Assembly: GCF_964355755.1 (NCBI RefSeq)
Contig: NC_092672.1
Location: 5,394,001 to 5,458,000, forward strand
Reading direction: 5' to 3'
Length of the DNA stretch: 64,000 nt
From: Antedon mediterranea
Taxonomy: Eukaryota; Animalia; Echinodermata
The translations under genes were made by a program, and so were the position numbers. The stretch's first letter is position 1. The number at the start of each line of letters is the position of its first letter. The notes beneath the pieces are model-generated. The model was not told the DNA's origin and searched no databases. It saw nothing but the letters and a program-made list of their open reading frames with translations. Shown here piece after piece: positions 16,701-54,051 of this stretch.

Positions 16701-19700
16701 TTTATGTTCCACAAAAAAATGAACCATTAAATAATAATATATAAATTGTGTCCAGTATTTTTCTGCCTTTTTGTTTGTATGCTTTGATATGAATGAATAA
16801 ATATACCTGAATATATAAATACAACATTTCGTTTAAAATTTCTGTACATGATTTTATTTCATAGTGATGCTCAAGAGGTTTTAAAATCGAGTAATGTTGA
16901 GGTTCCATTATACATTATTTAGTTATTTTTACAAAATGTATATCATAACAGTAACAGTTTTGTTTTCATTTTTCTAGTGGACAAAGGTCCCAGCCATTCC
17001 AAGGCGGCAAAACAGTAACAGTGACACAGACTACAAGCTATGGTCAACATGCTCCTAGCTACACTCAGAACCCACCTGCCCCTCTACAGCAACCACCGAT
17101 TAAAAGCCCACCAAACATCAGCTCACCACCCCCTCGCTCTGCATCTTCAGCTACTAAGGAGCTGGATGACCTGATGGAGTCATTATCAGACTTTAAGGTA
17201 AGTAAACAAATAAGAAATGCTTACAAACAGCGCATTTGAGGCTTGGAGAGTGGAAGGTGGTGGAAACGGTAATTAGATACTAGGTCAGGATTGAATTCTA
17301 GACTCTGGATTGAACCCTTGACCTTAGATTGAACCCTCAGCCTTGGATTAAACCCTCAGCCTTGGATTGAACCAGGGACCTTAGATTGAAGCCTGTACCT
17401 TAAGCTCTGTCTACAATATCAAATATCAAAAAGTGTGATGTGCCCATAGTGATATGACATCATGTCCATATAGGGGCACATCACTTTTTGTTATCACATA
17501 AAGTAATAACTGTATGATAGTGTTGACAGAGCTTTAGACGCTATAACCACCAAGCTACAACTTCACTACTTAGCAGAGTTTTGTTTAAAGTAAACATTTT
17601 GGAGGGTTAATTCAATTTGTCAAATTTCATGCTAGTTGAACATGCATTGTATTTAAAATATGATGACGGATTTGTCATATATAAAGACTCGTAAGTATTC
17701 AAGACAATGCATATCAATTAGAGATTGAGGTTTAAGCCTACAAATGTATTATTTTTCTCATAGATGAATCATATATCACCTGTTGAAACAGTACCCCACG
17801 ACCCCATAAGAACAGCACCAATATCACAGCCAGTACCAGCTGAACACAACTCCAGCAATCAGCTAGACTCCATGCTTCGTCATCTAGACTCAGACATGAG
17901 TCGTCAAGGGGTCAACACGGTAGCTAAAGGTCACTGTGCCGCTTGCAACAAGCCGATTGTTGGACAAGTAAGCGTTCATTTTTTACAGTTGTTTTTATTT
18001 ATTTATTCATTTATTATGGCATTCGTCTTGGGTAAGACATTACATTTGCTAATCGTTTCCATAATCTCTTTCGGTGGCCTGATGGTCCGTCTTTAACCTT
18101 TCGATTGATGTAATTTTTGATTATATTCACTTACACCTTATTAATTAAAATACAGTATTGAATTAGAAATATTTTACTTTTTACGTCTCTTTCTCTTTTT
18201 CGTATTCATACCCACAAAAACTTTTTTATAAAATATAACCAAGTTAACAACCTACTGCATTAAACAATATATGTACAGAAACGTTGCAATAAACCTTCCA
18301 ATACAGGTTGTGACAGCTCTTGGCAAGACTTTCCATCCAGAACACTTCACCTGCAGTCACTGCCATCAGGAATTAGGCTCTTGCAACTTCTTTGAACGAG
18401 AGGGAGCTGCTTTCTGTGAGCGGGATTATCATAATCTATTTTCGCCAAGATGTGGTTACTGTAACGGACCAATTCTTGATGTAAGTAACCATCTCAAGTC
18501 TAAGGCAACTAATCAGGTTTGATTTCATGCAGGCGGCGGTAAACACAATTATTGGAAGGGCATTTTCTTACGTTGCGTAGGTTGCGCTGGTGGGAACCAT
18601 GCTTAGCTGTAGTGATTATGTTTATATTCTTGCAATTTTAAAATTTCTCAACATATATTATTAATTTGTAGAAATGTGTTACAGCGTTAGACAAAACATG
18701 GCACCCAGAACATTTCTTTTGCGCTCAATGTGGCCGTGCATTTGGAGAAGACGGCTTTCACGAGAAGAACGGCAAAGCGTATTGTAGAGAAGATTACTTT
18801 GACATGTTTGCACCTAAATGCGGCGGTTGTCACCGCGCAATCATGGAAAATTACATGACTGCATTGAACACTCAGTGGCATCCAGAATGTTTTGTGTGTG
18901 GGGTAAGATTACTTTTATATATTTAAAATGCCAGATTGGCATTTTTAAAATCAAGTGATTATATTTGGCATGGTAGTATGAAACAATTGCAGTAACCAAG
19001 TTGGGACACTTGGCTATCTGGCTAAACCTAGGGGCCCCAGAGCTCAAAGGGCCCCAGATCATGAGCAGTCCAATGCAACTACCCAGTGTTGGAGGGCCCT
19101 TAGGAGTGCCAAAACCAAGGGCCTTTGCACTGTGTGTTACGCCTCTGGCCATCAGGCAGAAAGACTTCAATTCCCAATTAAAACAATTCATGTCAGGCCT
19201 CTTGGCTGTAAATGAGTACCTGGTTGGAAAATACTGGTTAGGAGAAGGGAGAATGAACTGACCACCTTACCACATATTTCTGAAGCTCACTACAATGAGC
19301 TCTAACAGTTCATTAACATATGTTCAGAATTAATGTATACAGTAGTGTAATGTAAAAACAAATCTTGTCAATAGGGAGGTTTCGCAACCTTACAAATACG
19401 ATAACGAAAACGGATACGTCACACTTTTGTGAAACTTTTGAGCTGATCCCCATTTCATATTCGAAAAGCGTATTCGTGTTGACTAATATCACCAGTCATA
19501 TTCGTAAATACAAAACGACTATAGTTTTTGATCTATTTTGCACATTTTGCATTTGAATCAGGAAAGATTCATGATTATAATATAATTATAGATTTATTAC
19601 TAAAGTAATTTACTAAAATGCCAGGTGATGTAAAGGCCAACTCAGACAGCGTCGTACGACGAGGCCCAACGAGACGTCTTGTCTGGACCCGTCTTTCCAA

Positions 19701-22700
19701 AGTCCTACCGACAGATAATCGTGCCAACGCTCCGCGACGGCTCAACTCAGACAGCCCGACGCGACTATATTGCCTGCGCTTCTGATTGGTTGAATTCAAG
19801 ATGACGCAACAAACCATGCAACGCGTACGCACGACGTACGTACGAATACGTTCGTATGATTTGTAAACACGGAAGTAATAGTAAGTTTAATTGATAATTA
19901 ATAAACCGATAAATCCGTTTGTTTTACCTAATAAAAATAACAACAAAATTTAAGCTTATATTTTGTTGAATAATTGAGACTAGGCATATGGGATCCATAT
20001 CAGTACAGAGTTGGTAGGCCCATGTATGCCCCTAGCCAGGCCTTTTAGTAGGCATATTAGTTTAGGCCTAGGCCTAGTATCTAAATATGTGGTCACTTAG
20101 GCTAGGGCCCAAGGCCTAGGTAGTTAGTAGAAACTTAGGCTAGACCCAGATACTTTATCTAGGCATAGTAGTACATACAGAATAGGAAGTCTAATATGAT
20201 ACAGGGTAGAGTCACATGTCGATCGGTTCAATTGCTTTCATTTTTAATTACTAGGCCAATACATAACCTTGGAATATTTATGTAGGCCTAAATTAGGCTA
20301 AGCTAGGCATTTATTTATTTAGAGTACCTATACAATTCAAGTTAAATTTATAATATTGAACACAATTCAATACAAAATTGTGTTCATATATATCATTTAA
20401 AATGTCCGATTGATAAGCATTGTTGAGAGGTATAGATAGATATAACAAACCAGATAGATATAACTTTTTTTAAATTCTTTTTTTTATTATTAATATTAAC
20501 AAATTATGTACAAAAAGTAAGTGGTTCCATTTCGTCTCCATACCTTAACACTGTGGCAATGCGCCATACCAACTTTTTGGACATGTTAGCCTAAAACTCA
20601 ACTCATTAACTAGTGATACAAAATAACAAACAAATAACTAAATTATTTAAATTAAACATAATTATATTACACTTTTATTTATTTACTACATGTATTTGTT
20701 ATTACATATTAAATCACAACATACATCAGATTATATTGATGAAACAAAATGTAACCATTTAATTAAAGATGTATTGCCCCTTTGTCAAATTCCATTTACT
20801 GAATAATGAAATTTCTTAAAAATGTTGTTTTAATTATACAGTATTTACATCATGGTGTCAAATAAACGCAAATCATGTGCTGCTTTACTGCTGTTGCTTT
20901 TAAAAAGAAGGCGGCGAAGACGAAGCAGCAGAATATGGTGTAAGCCCTGGATCCTCAAAAGACAGCAACAAGGAGCATATGGAAATTTGATTCAAGAACT
21001 GCGGCTCCAGGACCAGGAATCTTACAGAAATTTTTTAAGGATGGATACTGGCACATTTGACAACCTCCTGAGTTTGGTCAAGCCCATTATAAAGAAGCAA
21101 AACACCAACTGGCGCCAGAGTATTTCTCCAGGAGAAAGATTAGCGATTACGCTTCGTTTTATTGCAACTGGTGAGTAAACATGTTCAAATCATCAAAAAC
21201 CCAAATTTATTCTATCCCTTATCCTTTCTCAGGTTTTTCAAGTATACTAACAATCTGATCACCTGTAGTTGCAAATAACCATTCATTTGTCAAACAAATT
21301 GTTAATTTCAGGTGAAACATACAAAAGTCTGTCATTTCAATACAGAGTTGGGGCCACAACAATTGGTGAAATTGTACCAGACACATGTAATGCAATATAC
21401 TCTGTTTTGAAAGAACAATACATGAAGGTAAATTACTGTGTACTCTAGGCTATAAATTTAATTTGTTATCCACTAGGAAACTGTAGTGAATGGAAAAATC
21501 AGTGAGGATTTGACTGGCTAGACAGTACATTTTGATATTATATATATTATTTGAAGCTAATCTAGATCTTTTATCTTTACTTCAAAAATATCATTTTGGA
21601 TTTTGTTCATCAGAACTGCTTTGGTTTTTTTATTTTGTATTTGTTTAAGTTCTGATGTAACATACTGACCAAAAAGTAAATCGGCATCTGTTTCTTCGCT
21701 TACGTTTGAAGGAGATTCTAATATTGTTGTAAGATTACGAATCAAATTCAATTCTTCATTGTCTCTCTCTCTTTTTGTTGGTTTTGTTGAACTTTTTTTT
21801 GTCTTAACATCATTTTCTTCGCTCATGTTGGATACATCATCATCGTGATCTGCCTCTAATCCTAAATCTGACAACTGTAACAAAAAAAAGCAATGATCAG
21901 TCAGTTATGATGTATTATTATTATTTTTTATTAGAAAGTTTATCATATTTTTATATTCATATTAACAGACGCCATCAACATCTGAAGAATGGATGGGAAT
22001 AGCAAAAGAGTTCCAAATGAAATGGAATTTCCCCAATTGTTTGGGTGCACTAGATGGAAAACATGTCAGTATTCGGCCACCACCCAATTCAGGCTCGGAA
22101 TATTTCAATTACAAAAATTCATTCAGCCTGGTACTGATGGCCCTTGTAGATTCATCATATAAATTTTTATATGTCGACTTCGGTACGAATGGACGTGTAT
22201 CCGACGGTGGGGTGTTCTCAAAATGCTCGTTGGATAAGGGCCTTAAGAACAAAGCAATTGGAGTACCAACCCCGAGTCCATTGCCTGGAACAAATACGAC
22301 AGTTCCATATATGATAGTAGCAGACGATGCATTCCCATTGCGGGAGGACATTATGAAGCCACATCCTCTAAGGCATTTAACGAAACAACAAAGAGTATTC
22401 AATTATCGTCTGTCAAGAGCTAGGAGGGTTTCTGAGAATGCTTTTGGGATCTTTGCAAATAGATTTGGTGTATTCTTGACGACGATCAAAATACTGCCGG
22501 AACACCTTCAACCGTTAGTGTTGGCATGTGCTGCTTTGCACAACATGCTAAGAAGCAATAGTGCCTACAATCCACCAGGTTTTGTTGACCTGGAAAATGG
22601 GGCGCACAATGTTGTTGAAGGACAGTGGCGACAGCAACCATCCATGGTGCCTGTTCAACTTGATAGGCACAACAATTTTACATCTGCTGCCAAGCAACAG

Positions 22701-25700
22701 AGAGAAATATTAACCACATACTTTTCATCAAAAGAAGGATCCATTGAATGGCAAGACCAAATGATTTAGATACACAGTATACTGTATACGTGCTACATAA
22801 ATTCCAACTATTATGCTTCCTTTTATTTTCACAATTTGTTTTACAGTATTCTCATTGAGGACTCTACTTTATACAACCATATTTAGGCTATAGTATTACT
22901 TACATCTAATGTGGACTGAGACGCCCTCTGCTTAATGTATGGAGTAAGCCAGTCACATCGCTCCAGCACCCATTGCTGCCTAGCTGTTCTTTTCCTGGCA
23001 GCACTCCCACTAGGCAGGCTCTTTCTGTAACGCATAAATTGTGTCCTCAGGGAATTTATATGTTTTTTGATCTCAATGTCTATTAAAATACAAATATATA
23101 TATATAATTAAATCATAATATATTAATAATCTATATAATCACAATCCATTTTTACCATTTATTTTACATTTAGGCCTACTTGGAATATATACTGTGTATA
23201 TGATATATGATATTGATACAAATATTAATAATTAAATTACATTATATTTTATACAATTTATTTTACTTTTACTTGGAATGTATACTGTGTATATAATATA
23301 AATACAATTATTAATAATAAAATTATATCATATTTTACTGTTTATTTAATGTTTACATTTACTTGGAATATATACTGTGTATATGATATATGATATTGAT
23401 ACAAATATTAATAATTAAATTACATTATATTTTATACAATTTATTTTACCTTTAATTGGAATGTATACTGTGTATATAATATAAATACAATTATTAATAA
23501 TAAAATTATATCATATTTTACTGTTTATTTAATGTTTACATTTACTTGGAATATATACTGTGTATATGATATATGATATTGATACAAATATTAATAATTA
23601 AATTACATTATATTTTATACAATTTATTTTACCTTTAATTGGAATGTATACTGTGTATATAATATAAATACAATTATTAATAATAAAATTATATCATATT
23701 TTACTGTTTATTTAATGTTTACATTTACTTGGAATATATACTGTGTATATGATATATGATATTGATACAAATATTAATAATTAAATTACATTATATTTTA
23801 TACAATTTATTTTACCTTTAATTGGAATGTATACTGTGTATATAATATAAATACAATTATTAATAATAAAATTATATCATATTTTACTGTTTATTTAATG
23901 TTTACATTTACTTGGAATATATACTGTGTATATGATATATGATATTGATACAAATAATAAATATTAATAATTAAATTACCTATATAGGGCATATAATAAT
24001 AGGCGCAGTTTTGCTTATTTATTTTTCTTGCCAATGAAAGTGAATGAATTCATGTGAATGTTGCTGATAATTTATAATATGCCTAGGGGCCTCTCTCTAG
24101 GCTAGAACTAGTAAGTAAAGACAAAGTAGTAGAGATTAGTTTATTTGTGGAAATTTTAGGGCCTACTAACTAGGCCTAGGCTAATACTAGCCCATAATAT
24201 TAGGCCTACTATCTATATATTAATGCTACTACTAATAGGTAGGCTAGTTAGGCCTATAATAATAATATTTTACTATTACTACTAGTAGTACTAACTAGTA
24301 CTAGGCCCAGGGAATAATTTCGCCAGTGTAGCATAGCAAAAAGCTATACAAAACAACCTAATATTGCTACACATTTCTAAAATTGTGTAGCAAAATATAC
24401 AATACAAAACTATGTTTCTCGACTAAAAAATAAGTTGGATTAGCAATAATTGCTAAACAAAATTTTAAAATGAAATTTCCTAGTTTAGTCTAGGGGCCTA
24501 CACTACGTACTGTACAGTATAGTAATAAAAGAGCCTAGTTTAGTAGGTAGGCCTAGTCCCAAGCTTAATATTTAATATTAGCCAAACCTAGGCTAGAGAC
24601 TAGCATGCCATAGGGACCTACCTAGGCCTAGCCCTAGGCTTATTAGGCCTAGTTAGTTAATTAATAATATTCTATTAGGCCTAGGCTAGGACTTGTTGTA
24701 GGAAAGTGTTTAGGCTAGTGAGTCGAGTGTGGGTCATTCATTTTTGGCAATAATTAATAATAGGCCTAGGCCTACGTACACTAGCCTAGCTAGGCTATAT
24801 TAATATTAGTAAAATAGCTGTTGTGTTGTGCCTAGCCTATATGCCTAGCCTATCCCTATATGGGACAAACCGCTAATTGGTACAATCCATCTACCCCTAG
24901 TAGGCTAGCCTAGGCTAGGCCTAGTAGTAAATATTTATTATTTTAGGCCTAACCTAGGAGGGGCCTTATTATAGGCCTAGCCTAGTAGGCTAGGCCTACT
25001 ACTTACTAGGCCAGGCTAGTAATTAATAATAATAATATTATTTGTTGGACTTACCACTTTTTCCTAATATTACGGCGAATTCTTCTACTTTTTTTTGCCT
25101 AAGCTGTCGATTGCTATACTCTTTGGAGGTAGTGTCATATAGACACATTTCATTCCTCCAAAGGTCAATAAGGCAAGACTCGGCCTCTTCTGACCATAAA
25201 TCTTCTTCACGTGCACCACCACCACTGACCGCCATGATGATGGAAATAATCCCCGCGAAGCACATTACTTCTTCGCGCTCTTCGATAAAAACTTTTCCCC
25301 TCGTGACCTGCCGTCATAATTTAAACGCCTGTGATTGGTCAATACCCAACAAACGAGTCGTCCCGTCGGGTGAAAATTAAACATGTTTAATATGCTCACG
25401 ACGACCTAAAACTACCCCCGACGCTATCTCACGACGACCCGTCTCGTCTGGATTCAACTCAGACAGCACGGACGAGTCAAGTTCAGACAAGACGTCTCGT
25501 CGGGCCTCGTCGCACGACGCTGTCTGAGTTGGCCTTAACGCTAGGCCTAGACAGCCAAGCGCCAAGCAACACGTACCTGCGCGTCGCTAAAATTTACCGC
25601 AGTCATTTTTTGGACGGCGCCCTCAATATTTAGTTGCCATGCGAAACAGATTTTTACTGGCTTACGAAAACGAATACGTGTGCTTGACGTTTTCGTTATC

Positions 25701-26079
25701 GTATTCGTAAGATTGCGAAACCTCCCTAATACTGATACTGAAAATTGTTTTCTTCTAACAGTCCTGCTAATACTAATAACATCATACATCAATTTTATTT
25801 TTCTTCAAACAGGAATGTCGTATGCCTTTCAATGGTGGTAGTTTCTTCGATCACGATGGTATTCCATACTGCGAGACACATTACCACGCCGTACGCGGAT
25901 CCCTCTGCGCTGGCTGCAGAATGCCAGTCACTGGAAGATGCATCACAGCCATGGGCAAGAAGTTTCACCCAGAGCACTTTTCTTGCGCATACTGCCTGAA
26001 ACAACTCAACAAAGGCACCTTCAAGGAACAGAATGATAAGCCTTATTGCCATACATGTTTTACAAAGTTGTTTAGCTAG
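1772..26079 (+). CDS. PXN: Paxillin (exons 1772-1784, 13287-13438, 13872-14130, 14733-14844, 16978-17197, 17764-17967, 18307-18480, 18672-18902, 25813-26079)
   Basis: A 13-nt first coding exon ATGGAAGACCTCG|GT gives LD1 MEDLDKLLEEL. LD2 [14 protein letters not shown]4 [19 protein letters not shown]5 [13 protein letters not shown], and four C-terminal LIM domains ending [13 protein letters not shown]. All splice phases are compatible. Confidence 0.96.
2209..2280 (-). tRNA. tRNA-like gene or pseudogene with Asp-like ATC anticodon (or tRNA-derived repeat)
   Basis: The minus strand GCCTCAG TG GTCTAATGGTTAGTAC A TCTGC ATATCAA GCAGG CGGT CCGAG TTCGAGT CTCGG TTGGGGC G folds as a cloverleaf with A and B boxes and G73, followed by ACTTTTT. 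Confidence 0.6.
4306..4342 (+). ncRNA. Minimal type I hammerhead ribozyme motif (Penelope-like retroelement remnant)
   Basis: GCA-CTGATGA-A-GGGC-tagtgtt-GCCC-GAAA-GCTC-TGC: intact core, 4-bp stem II, palindromic AGCT stem III, CUC cleavage triplet, 3-bp stem I. Confidence 0.6.
9861..9968 (+). repeat. 13-bp minisatellite (GGGGAATGTTCCA)x8
   Basis: Eight perfect consecutive units plus a final GGGG; the source of the repetitive spurious ORFs 9649-10041 and 9852-10037. Confidence 0.95.
10525..10790. repeat. Imperfect tandem repeat
   Basis: Recurring blocks taagacatagtcaacatatgagacataat and aagcatggacctaatttataggttcatggtataagacat. Confidence 0.8.
10890..11130. repeat. ~131-bp tandem duplication (2 copies)
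   Basis: ccctgttaaaa...cacatacttgtacctttaa starts at 10892 and 11023 and the copies are near identical. Confidence 0.9.
11585..12968. mobile_element. Non-autonomous Helitron/Helentron-like element
   Basis: CpG-rich island in an AT-rich intron; terminal hairpin GGTTATCC-tgcaacttcgttgc-GGATAACC next to a (GAT)n/AGAA microsatellite; internal diverged ~355-bp duplication (around 11740 and 12096); no TIR or TSD seen. The class assignment is an inference. Confidence 0.5.
13525..13677. mobile_element. Small hAT-like MITE remnant
   Basis: GC-rich ends with ggggggcccag / ctgggcccccc inverted motifs and a ...cgcccctg terminus. Confidence 0.4.
15500..15617. mobile_element. MITE family A, copy 2
   Basis: Same TIR and internal motifs. 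Confidence 0.85.
16375..16445 (+). CDS. Candidate alternative paxillin exon (alternative first exon, or mutually exclusive with exon 4)
   Basis: ATG TTT TCA GCT...ATG ACC AT|GTAAGT encodes [23 protein letters not shown]. Its phase-2 donor matches the 16978 acceptor, and the internal tttcag| acceptor at 16385 is phase 1, like exon 4. Confidence 0.5.
17403..17533. mobile_element. MITE family A, copy 3
   Basis: Same TIR; TTA/TTA flanks. Confidence 0.8.
20852..22769 (+). CDS. Harbinger DDE transposase (HARBI1/DDE_Tnp_4 family), exons 20852-21170, 21312-21427, 21969-22769; 411 aa
   Basis: Motifs [50 protein letters not shown] and [17 protein letters not shown]; spliced ORF has no stops or frameshifts. 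Confidence 0.95.
21557..25235 (-). CDS. Harbinger accessory Myb/SANT (MADF) plus BESS protein, exons 25235-25055, 23079-22904, 21874-21557; ~224 aa (an in-frame ATG also at 25265)
   Basis: [21 protein letters not shown]...YSNR, then [12 protein letters not shown]...SGS...[11 protein letters not shown] (MADF) and C-terminal [17 protein letters not shown]...KIQNDIFE (BESS-like). Both donors are GTAAGT and phases 1 and 0 match. Confidence 0.9.
23177..23980. repeat. 183-bp AT-rich tandem repeat (~4.4 copies, each built of two related ~90-bp halves) in intron 1 of the MADF gene
   Basis: acttggaatatatactgtgtatatg recurs at 23178, 23361, 23544, 23727 and 23910. Confidence 0.93.
24308..24480. mobile_element. 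CAGGG-terminated MITE copy inside the Harbinger (same family as 52920-53094, opposite orientation)
   Basis: Reverse-complement match over ~170 bp to 52920-53094; the right end is eroded. Confidence 0.8.
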
Positions 26080-51683: not shown

Positions 51684-54051
51684 ATGGACTATTACAACGC
51701 AGGAAATATTGATTTAGTTTCTTTCAAACAAGGACAACAAGATCTTCTCAATATGTCAGAATGTTCAGACGACGCTGCTGCAATTTTACCTGCATCTGGC
51801 CAGAGAAAACCGTCTTCAAAACGAGAACCCCTCAGACGAATGAACTCGGGCGGTAGGCTTAGAAACGTTAAGAAGGCATGGGGCGATCTTAAATCGGTGA
51901 GACAATATTCATTGCTAGCCTACTACTACGGCTGGGCCTAGGCCCTCTGCTAGCCTATCTATTAGAATTTCCTAAAAGGGAAAACCTGCTGATGGTAGGC
52001 TGGGTAGGCCTAACTGAACTAGGCCTAGCTAGGCCAGGCACAAGAGATGAATATAATAATATCATATCAATATCATGATGATGGATATAGATAGCCTAGC
52101 TAGCCTATGTCATTGACTTTGTCAGTATTCAATATTATTATTATTATTATTTATTAAATATTAATTAATGTCAACAACATGTCAACACTAAAAATTTGCA
52201 AGGCAATTTTTGGAAATTTTCAGTAGCCTAGAAATCTAGGCCTACTTACTAGTAGGCCTAGGCCTAGCTATAAAATAAAAAAAAAATTAATTAAAAAAAA
52301 ATTGTACTAGTAGTAGGCTAGGCCTAGCCTAAGCCTAAATTACAATTTACTTTGAAATCTTAAATAAAGGATAACAAATTATTTTAAAAAAACATAACAT
52401 GTCTTATAATATTAATTTTATAAATAAGTGCTCTTATCAATTAATGAATGTTCTATTTTTTATTTAGAAAATTAAAATTCCGGGAAAAGGAACAAAGCAC
52501 TCAAAATGGAATGTTCCTCAACACACCAAAACACCTGAATGTCCCCCACAAGTACTCAGAACGCCAAGGTCGATGACAAAGCAACGATTGTTAGACATAG
52601 CATACAGTCCAGACTTCTTCAGGACTCCGGAGCATTGTAGAATCTATCGTAGTTCAAAAACACCAGGAACCGAACAAAGCGAATTCCTGCGGAGATCAGT
52701 TCGTATTGCAAACCGAACCCCAACACCATCTTCTGTAAAGTCACGGAGAAGAAGCGTGAAACCGAGAAGGTACTAAGATAACATATGATACAGAAAACTT
52801 TGGGATGTCCCCTAACTATTTTCATAATGCATATATTTTACTTAGTATTAACTTTGTGAGAGATTGTTATGCTAGCGTAAGAATTCCATCTTCAGGAGTA
52901 ATAAGTTAGTAATAATAAGCAGGGAAAAATTTCATTAAAAAAATTTGTTTAGCAATATTGCTAATCAAACTGATTTTTAAGTCGAGAAACATAGTTTTGT
53001 ATTGTATTTTTTGCTACACAATTTTTAAAATGTGTAGCAATAAGGTTTTTTTGTATAGCTTTTTGCTATGCTACACTGGCGAAAATGTTCCCTGATAAGT
53101 ATTTCTAGAGAACACTTCGCCACCAAATAAACAATCAACACATTCTCAATTATTTTATTTCTTTTTTTTGTACCACAAACCTCACTAGTTTTTTTTCTCA
53201 TTGTCTATATAAAACAAAAGAAAATAATATTAATACATTCATACCATCTTGATGCTTTATTGTTTTATTCAGAATTGAAGCCACGAAAGATTTGAACCAG
53301 GAAGTGAATGATGTAGTTCGAATGACACGCACCATGACAACCATGTCGTCTGCTGTTGATTGCTATAAAGGAATGGCACAGGGATTGCGTGATTCCATCG
53401 AGAAAAATGAAATGTAATTTACAAAAATTCCTCTTTAATAGTTACAATATGAATAAGTGACTAAACATATAAATACTGGTATTTAATATTGAAAGTGTAA
53501 TGCTCATGTTAATTGTATAACCCACTATACAACCCCTGGGAGAGGTGTGTCTTTTACAAATAATAATAAATAAAATAAAAATATGACGACACAGGGATGC
53601 GCCAAAAAACCTAGATGGTATGTCACATCAATGAACAATGGTGTGTCAATGTCCGTCACTTTACCACCCACCATATGAACAACATGGTCACAATGCGTCT
53701 AAATGGGTGCATCATGATCACCTATAGGTAAGTCACTTTTTTTACGCAAGGGTGTGTGTGTCGATGGGTGTGTCATGGTTTTCATATATGGTATCACGCA
53801 CACATAGACAATTGACATACTTCTCCCGGGGGTCGTATAGTGGGTCATACAATTAAGAAGTGCATAATTTAACTATACCATTTAAACTAATTCCTTAATA
53901 AACTATAATTCCTCCATGACTATACTAAGTATGTTATACAAATATTTACATTTTTAGCTCATCTGTTCAAGATACAAGTGCTGATGGAACAGACAAAAAG
54001 GAGGCCAAAGGAAGAAAGAAGAAGCAAAACACTCCACCAAAGGCCAAATAA
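51684..54051 (+). CDS. PIMREG/FAM64A (RCS1)-like mitotic regulator (exons 51684-51896, 52468-52769, 53273-53413, 53958-54051)
   Basis: Phase-consistent 4-exon ORF with D-box-like REPLRRMN, helix LRNVKKAWGDLKSKIK, many S/T-P sites, LRRSVR and a C-terminal helix SSAVDCYKGMAQGLRDSIEKNE. The gene itself is well supported; the family assignment is recalled from motif order. Confidence 0.6.
52920..53094. mobile_element. 175-bp MITE with CAGGGAA termini and 5-bp TSD (hAT5-like)
   Basis: ATAAG|CAGGGAA...TTCCCTG|ATAAG. Confidence 0.8.
53509..53856. mobile_element. Unclassified TIR element, ~350 bp
   Basis: ~42-bp imperfect TIR ttaattgtataacccactatacaacccctgggagaggtgtgtc / gacatacttctcccgggggtcgtatagtgggtcatacaattaa. 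Confidence 0.75.

What the first reader, a model, noticed from the sequence alone, without database searches (positions are those of the whole stretch)
20852..25235. Intact Harbinger whose two genes are mutually interleaved on opposite strands
Seen in sequence: the last MADF-gene exon (BESS-like, 21874-21557, minus) lies inside transposase intron 2 (21428-21968). The transposase catalytic exon (21969-22769, plus) lies inside MADF-gene intron 2 (21875-22903). The two acceptors sit back to back about 94 bp apart. Established: PIF/Harbinger transposition needs both a DDE transposase and a Myb/SANT partner, usually arranged side by side, with simple nesting reported in some insect elements. Inference: this reciprocal interlock forces over 1.2 kb of convergent overlapping transcription (polymerase collision or pre-mRNA dsRNA) while the coding exons share no overlap. 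It could act as a built-in self-limiting or stoichiometry switch and makes the two genes hard to separate by deletion.
Basis: partly seen in the sequence, partly recalled or inferred. Interest (0 to 1): 0.85.

Follow-up and report, generated by a model that had tools for sequence, protein, structure and literature searches.

The report
Jumping gene with interlocked gene pair
This intact animal jumping gene carries two protein genes on opposite strands, each with its last exon inside the other's last intron; both splices appear in public RNA data, distant relatives share the layout, and the partner gene's message likely runs antisense over the start of the transposase gene, which would be a built-in brake that is still untested.

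Summary
Confirmed. An intact PIF/Harbinger element (19634-25535, TAA duplication, ~55-bp TIRs) lies in the last intron of a paxillin-like gene. It encodes a 411-aa DDE transposase (+) and a 224-aa MADF protein (-) whose last exons are reciprocally interleaved. RNA-like contigs show both interlocking splices: 22904/21874 in two studies, 21427/21969 in one contig.

It is not a one-off. Two distant transposase lineages (about 41-50% identity) interlock at the same intron positions. Of 24 related loci, 4 share the layout, 7 are plain tail-to-tail or tandem, 1 shows a second nested form and 12 could not be placed. A single origin is neither shown nor rejected.

'Hard to separate by deletion' is wrong: one deletion kills either gene and spares the other. 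A regulatory switch is untested. Nine literature searches found no description, but Repbase/Dfam and four key papers were not read. The scan noted a similar interlock in an ISL2EU element on other DNA (unchecked). Verdict: new variant of a known kind.

The parts
19631..19633 (.). left target-site duplication TAA
   Evidence: in DNA runs many contigs turn loose at 19631/19633, as TWA sites predict
19634..19688 (+). left terminal inverted repeat, begins AGGCC
   Evidence: 59-nt arms including the TSD, 93% complementary
19742..19754 (+). subterminal copy of a TIR motif; four copies in the element (two in the TIRs, one near each end); candidate MADF binding site (inferred)
20661..21556 (-). likely MADF 3' UTR, unspliced, antisense to transposase exons 1-2 and its start; ends 13 nt past an AATAAA at 20679-20674
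   Evidence: X9 contig of 1655 nt, unstranded, from related organism B; hexamer scan
20852..21170 (+). transposase exon 1
   Evidence: own transposase profile; splice not seen in RNA
21312..21427 (+). transposase exon 2
   Evidence: joint 21427/21969 in X5
21557..21874 (-). MADF-gene exon 3 (acidic linker plus conserved C-terminal helical motif, BESS-like), inside transposase intron 2
   Evidence: joint 21874/22904 in X5 and X9; 41 relatives by phmmer; Pfam BESS not hit
21875..21968 (.). 94-nt spacer holding the two back-to-back splice acceptors
21969..22769 (+). transposase exon 3 (whole DDE domain; D174, D265, E301 by motif), inside MADF intron 2
   Evidence: DDE_Tnp_4 E 3e-27; motif positions
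22904..23079 (-). MADF-gene exon 2 (second half of the MADF domain)
23150..23998 (.). 183-bp tandem array (about 4.6 units) in MADF intron 1
25055..25235 (-). MADF-gene exon 1 (first half of the MADF domain)
   Evidence: X9 loose end matches 25056 onward
25481..25535 (-). right terminal inverted repeat
25536..25538 (.). right target-site duplication TAA
18904..25813 (+). last intron of the host LIM-domain gene (paxillin-like; name recalled, LIM from Pfam), which holds the element

Best explanation
This is an intact two-gene PIF/Harbinger DNA transposon whose transposase and MADF genes are reciprocally interleaved and spliced across each other, a layout likely inherited from an old branch of animal Harbingers, and likely making the MADF transcript a natural antisense RNA that would damp transposase output. 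Steps. (1) Shown: TIRs, TAA duplication, two intact frames, both interlocking splices. (2) Established for the family, not tested here: the MADF protein binds subterminal motifs and brings the transposase into the nucleus for cut-and-paste. (3) Shown by comparison: the same two introns hold the same two exons in two further, distant lineages, while tail-to-tail relatives keep the partner's last exon behind the transposase stop. (4) Inferred: the interlock arose from a tail-to-tail ancestor when the adjacent blocks 'catalytic exon' and 'partner last exon' changed places without inversion, for example by tandem duplication and reciprocal loss. (5) Inferred: MADF transcription crosses nearly the whole transposase gene on the opposite strand, so polymerase interference or RNA pairing over exons 1-2 (435 nt) would lower transposase. 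Whether selection keeps the layout for this is unknown; I put that at about 0.3.
For: Structure. Splices. Selection: 24 of the 27 listed coding differences in the transposase are synonymous, against 22% expected (these come from the 40 of 104 rows that one search showed). Same layout in L002/L004, L005, L003 (part seen) and L015: phase-0 transposase intron just before the 'xP..EW' motif, partner intron just after the MADF domain. In L015 the acceptors are 8 nt apart and each pyrimidine tract is the antisense of the partner's coding exon; predicted, not RNA-checked. 45 of 120 top homologues are genomic ORFs that begin with an acceptor-like read-through at transposase residue 146, so that intron is widespread. 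Long antisense UTR: the X9 contig is spliced as MADF, runs to 20661, and depth falls from 33 to under 3 beyond it. L015 has no poly(A) hexamer between the partner stop and the contig start.
Against: The careful tree needs 2 changes for the interlock label; 30% of 200 bootstrap trees give 1. The quick tree gave 1, and FastTree split the three lineages. L037 and L014 have an intron near residue 146 without a nested exon, so the 45 ORFs do not prove interlocks. The long UTR rests on one unstranded contig from a related organism. It passes five earlier poly(A) hexamers, so its end near a hexamer is modest support. L002 has an AATAAA inside the transposase intron, which would allow a short UTR. The transposase splice rests on one contig with 28 letters on its short side. 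X5 holds both spliced forms, so the two genes do not exclude each other in bulk RNA. No stranded reads, small RNAs or reporter data were available.
Confidence: 0.7

Rival explanations
1. Frozen accident: the interlock came from one chance rearrangement and persists only because undoing it needs two precise events; it has no regulatory value.
For: Plain tail-to-tail and tandem relatives exist (7 of 24 loci). Both spliced RNAs occur in one run. The spacer varies from 8 to about 150 nt. L002 could end its partner mRNA inside the intron.
Against: A second nested form through different introns (L036) sits in another part of the tree, which hints at repeated origin. The long antisense UTR passes several usable poly(A) hexamers.
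Confidence: 0.45
2. The layout is kept because it ties a transposase to its cognate DNA-binding partner: no single crossover can swap one whole gene between families.
For: Follows from the exon order. Fish Harbinger transposase and Myb-like trees are largely congruent, with rare recombination (PMC9179366, abstract and passages).
Against: That congruence was reported without reference to layout. A single deletion still inactivates either gene alone. No recombination rates were measured here.
Confidence: 0.15
3. The arrangement is an annotation artefact: MADF ends after exon 2, and the minus-strand frame in the transposase intron is chance or a separate insertion.
For: Pfam BESS is not hit on exon 3. 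Only 3 listed differences fall in the MADF gene, too few to show selection.
Against: The exact CT..AC joint appears in two RNA-like runs from two studies and in none of the four other runs laid. 3 of 41 relatives of exon 3 carry an N-terminal MADF/Myb domain. The same exon sits in the same intron in distant elements.
Confidence: 0.02

Closest known systems
PIF/Harbinger superfamily (zebrafish Harbinger3_DR, rice Ping/Pong, Caenorhabditis Turmoil)
   Same: DDE_Tnp_4 transposase plus Myb/SANT/MADF partner, TIRs, 3-bp TWA duplication, repeated subterminal motif. Two-protein mechanism as summarised in PMC9710019 (Background read).
   Different: The layouts in passages I read are side by side: head-to-head in Caenorhabditis (PMC13668399); adjacent or dicistronic in domesticated Anopheles pairs (PMC9710019). 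None of the passages describes reciprocal interleaving.
Drosophila DPLT and other insect PIF-like elements (Casola et al. 2007)
   Same: MADF-type partner. A nested partner gene in some elements is recalled, not seen: the paper is not held.
   Different: Simple nesting puts one whole gene in an intron; here each gene holds the other's last exon. I could not check whether that paper already shows an interleaved case.
ISL2EU elements of the PHIS group
   Same: Two-gene relatives (PMC4482050 and PMC4122938, passages). An unchecked scan note reports the same kind of interlock in one (e1-9813892).
   Different: Their partner is a YqaJ exonuclease and the target is AT; here the partner is MADF and the target is TAA.

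Membership tests
PIF/Harbinger | DDE_Tnp_4 (HARBI1/IS5-like) transposase with catalytic acidic residues | tested here: met
   E 3e-27; ALDGKH, VADDAF and RRVSENAF motifs intact
PIF/Harbinger | second gene with a Myb/SANT/MADF domain | tested here: met
   MADF over exons 1-2; spliced in RNA-like runs
PIF/Harbinger | terminal inverted repeats | tested here: met
   about 55 nt; the 59-nt arms with the TSD are 93% complementary
PIF/Harbinger | 3-bp TAA/TTA target-site duplication | tested here: met
   TAA on both sides; loose ends at 19631 and 19633 in DNA runs
PIF/Harbinger | both proteins needed for transposition; partner binds subterminal motif and transposase | not testable with these tools
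   four copies of a 13-nt terminal/subterminal motif are a candidate site only
MADF-BESS proteins | Pfam BESS motif at the C-terminus | tested here: not met
   no BESS hit at E<=1; 1 of 41 relatives has a sub-threshold BESS match. It resembles BESS but is not filed as one.
ISL2EU | YqaJ exonuclease partner and AT target | tested here: not met
   partner is MADF; duplication is TAA
domesticated HARBI1/NAIF1-like gene pair | single copy without TIRs or TSD | tested here: not met
   TIRs and TSD present; 40-57 contigs per DNA run leave the left end into other flanks

The most novel reading that the evidence does not exclude
Two-gene PHIS transposons have repeatedly evolved an interlocked architecture (this Harbinger branch, a second Harbinger form through other introns, and perhaps ISL2EU) because it makes the partner's mRNA an obligatory antisense transcript of the transposase. 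That would be a self-limiting switch hard-wired into exon order and kept across animal lineages.
Probability: 0.25. Interest if true: 0.75.

Novelty: new variant of a known kind. Interest (0 to 1): 0.52.

Why it matters
How two-protein Harbinger elements balance transposase against partner, and how they limit their own activity, is open. An intact, transcribed element with an old, conserved reciprocal interlock makes this testable: untangle the exons and measure transposase and transposition. It also warns annotators, because gene finders and repeat libraries will split such elements into fragments; 45 of 120 top homologues are lone catalytic-exon ORFs. Conserved reciprocal interleaving of two interacting proteins' genes is also a compact model for how sense-antisense overlaps arise and last.

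Tried and rejected
No whole genome is held for the window, so copy number and an empty site could not be checked. The look-up of sequencing runs listed no holder on record as RNA; X5 and X9 are judged RNA only because they splice a host intron. X9 has almost no cover on transposase exon 3; contigs cannot show absence, so this is not used. The transposase intron 1 joint was not seen. Viral contigs gave nothing in two scans. Look-ups of earlier findings by sequence and by relatives were empty. An intron at residue 146 was first taken as a marker of the interlock, then rejected because of L037 and L014. Four seed rows of my second profiles were read in the wrong frame, so I checked L036, L037, L014 and L001 by eye; no partner exon was recognised in the 1.6-kb intron of L001. 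Twelve of the 24 tree loci had no placeable partner gene. L004 (near-copy of L002), L013 and the shorter fragments were left out of the tree. Artefact, ISL2EU and domesticated gene pair were rejected (see membership). No fold or complex job was run, as neither bears on exon order.

Full report
1. The element. Inverted repeats of about 55 nt, flanked by TAA on both sides, bound 19634-25535. DNA runs show 40-57 contigs leaving the left end at 19631 and others at 19633, as insertions into TAA and TTA would give. A 13-nt motif occurs four times, in both TIRs and once near each end. The element lies in the last intron (18904-25813) of a LIM-domain gene on the + strand ('paxillin-like' is my recall). 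The closest named protein is from the crinoid Anneissia japonica at 86% identity, so the host is likely a feather star.

2. The two genes. The + gene gives 411 aa and the - gene 224 aa, both without stops and with GT..AG introns. Pfam finds DDE_Tnp_4 on exon 3 and the MADF domain split over partner exons 1 and 2. The order on the DNA is T1, T2, M3, T3, M2, M1, with 94 nt between the facing acceptors. BESS is not matched. Exon 3 has 41 relatives at E<=0.001; 3 of them carry an N-terminal MADF/Myb domain, 1 has a sub-threshold BESS match and 2 are unrelated. It is therefore a real, conserved C-terminal motif of partner proteins that resembles BESS.

3. RNA evidence. Eleven runs hold the stretch or part of it and none is on record as RNA; I laid six. 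X5 (organism A) and X9 (organism B, another study) splice the host intron 18480/18672 and are taken as RNA. Both show the joint 21874/22904, which skips the whole catalytic exon. X5 also shows 21427/21969, which skips the partner's last exon, in one contig with 28 letters on its short side. X1, X6, X7 and X10 list neither joint. The X9 contig (1655 nt) covers partner exons 2 and 3, has a 176-letter loose end matching exon 1, and continues unspliced through transposase exon 2, intron 1 and exon 1 to 20661, 13 nt past an AATAAA. Read as MADF mRNA, its 3' UTR is complementary to 435 nt of transposase exons and reaches 191 nt upstream of the ATG. The contig is unstranded and passes five other hexamers, so this is likely, not shown. 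Of the coding differences listed (40 of 104 rows shown), 24 of 27 in the transposase are synonymous against 22% expected; the 3 in MADF (2 synonymous) are too few to judge.

4. Relatives. Scans of metagenome and genome contigs returned eukaryotic Harbinger copies. L002 has TIRs with a TTA site and the same order: a transposase intron at the same codon boundary, the partner's last exon inside it on the minus strand, and MADF exons behind the transposase stop. L004 is its near-copy; L005 and L003 (part seen) are the same family. The transposase is about 41% identical to the window's. L015, a degraded copy of another lineage, has both transposase introns at the window's positions and the same interlock, with predicted acceptors only 8 nt apart. 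Of the 24 loci put in the tree, 4 share the interlock, 6 are tail-to-tail with the partner's last exon behind the transposase stop (L006, L007, L009, L014, L037, L042), 1 is tandem (L048), 12 could not be placed, and 1 (L036) shows another form. In L036 the transposase exon from about residue 105 to the stop lies in MADF intron 1; its first exon was not seen. Among the 120 best of 4765 homologues, 45 begin with an acceptor-like read-through at residue 146, 22 begin with Met there, 41 run through, 10 start later and 2 were not classed. That intron is widespread but does not prove an interlock, since L037 and L014 have it without one.

5. Origin. The quick tree put the five interlocked rows on one branch (support 83). 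The careful tree needs two changes, joins the window and L015 at 85/91, and gives one change in 30% of 200 bootstrap trees. FastTree on 133 rows separated the three lineages. One origin is thus neither shown nor rejected; the identical intron positions favour it. L036 falls among the plain elements, which hints at a second origin. From tail-to-tail order (T1 T2 T3 M3 M2 M1) the interlock needs only T3 and M3 to change places without inversion; tandem duplication with reciprocal loss would do it (inference).

6. How it likely works. Transposition should follow the family's two-protein route (PMC9710019, Background); this was not tested here. The special consequence is that MADF transcription crosses almost the whole transposase gene on the other strand, in nascent RNA and likely in mature RNA. 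Polymerase interference or RNA pairing would then lower transposase. I give about 0.3 that selection keeps the layout for this, and more to a frozen accident. The claim that deletion cannot separate the genes fails on the coordinates; only whole-gene swapping by one crossover is blocked.

7. What is in print. Nine full-text searches gave no description of interleaved Harbinger genes. I saw passages of PMC13668399, PMC9392472, bioRxiv 2021.06.13.448261 (15), PMC5741667 and PMC4122938. I saw passages and part 1 of 6 of PMC9710019, passages and supplement part 1 of 8 of PMC9179366, and passages and a term search of the supplements of PMC4482050. Figures are not held, and those of PMC4482050 may draw the layout. 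Casola 2007, Sinzelle 2008 and Smith 2012 are not held. Kapitonov & Jurka 2004 was seen only as a reference, and Repbase/Dfam are not available. Because the layout is likely common in an animal-wide branch, curated consensus entries may already contain it.

8. Verdict. It is a standard Harbinger by every feature I could test, with an unusual, old, shared gene architecture and a likely antisense overlap of mature messages. New variant of a known kind; interest 0.52.

Noticed in passing
window 19373-19412 and 25688-25727: A second pair of 41-nt inverted repeats (95%) with an AAT duplication encloses the Harbinger. The left part is a very high-copy repeat in the laid runs, so the Harbinger likely sits inside or between MITE copies.
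   Followed up: partly
window 24308-24478 and 52927-53094: A 171-bp repeat (91%) in MADF intron 1 has a second, inverted copy in the window.
   Followed up: no
window 20766-20794: Organism B carries 113 other letters in place of 27 here, inside the likely MADF 3' UTR; the spot matches a high-copy repeat with A-rich loose ends.
   Followed up: no
L015 898-905: The two predicted facing acceptors share 8 nt, and each pyrimidine tract is the antisense of the other gene's coding exon.
   Followed up: partly
L036 790-2960: A second nested form: the large transposase exon lies inside MADF intron 1, with facing acceptors under 100 nt apart; the first transposase exon was not found.
   Followed up: partly
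L006-L015, L036-L051: Several bacterial genome bins hold eukaryotic contigs with intron-bearing Harbinger elements (up to 26 matching stretches per bin), i.e. host contamination.
   Followed up: no
window 18904-25813: The host gene is read on the + strand through the whole element, so its pre-mRNA is sense to the transposase and antisense to MADF for this copy.
   Followed up: no
L002 about 3579: The partner's intron 2 donor reads GC rather than GT.
   Followed up: no
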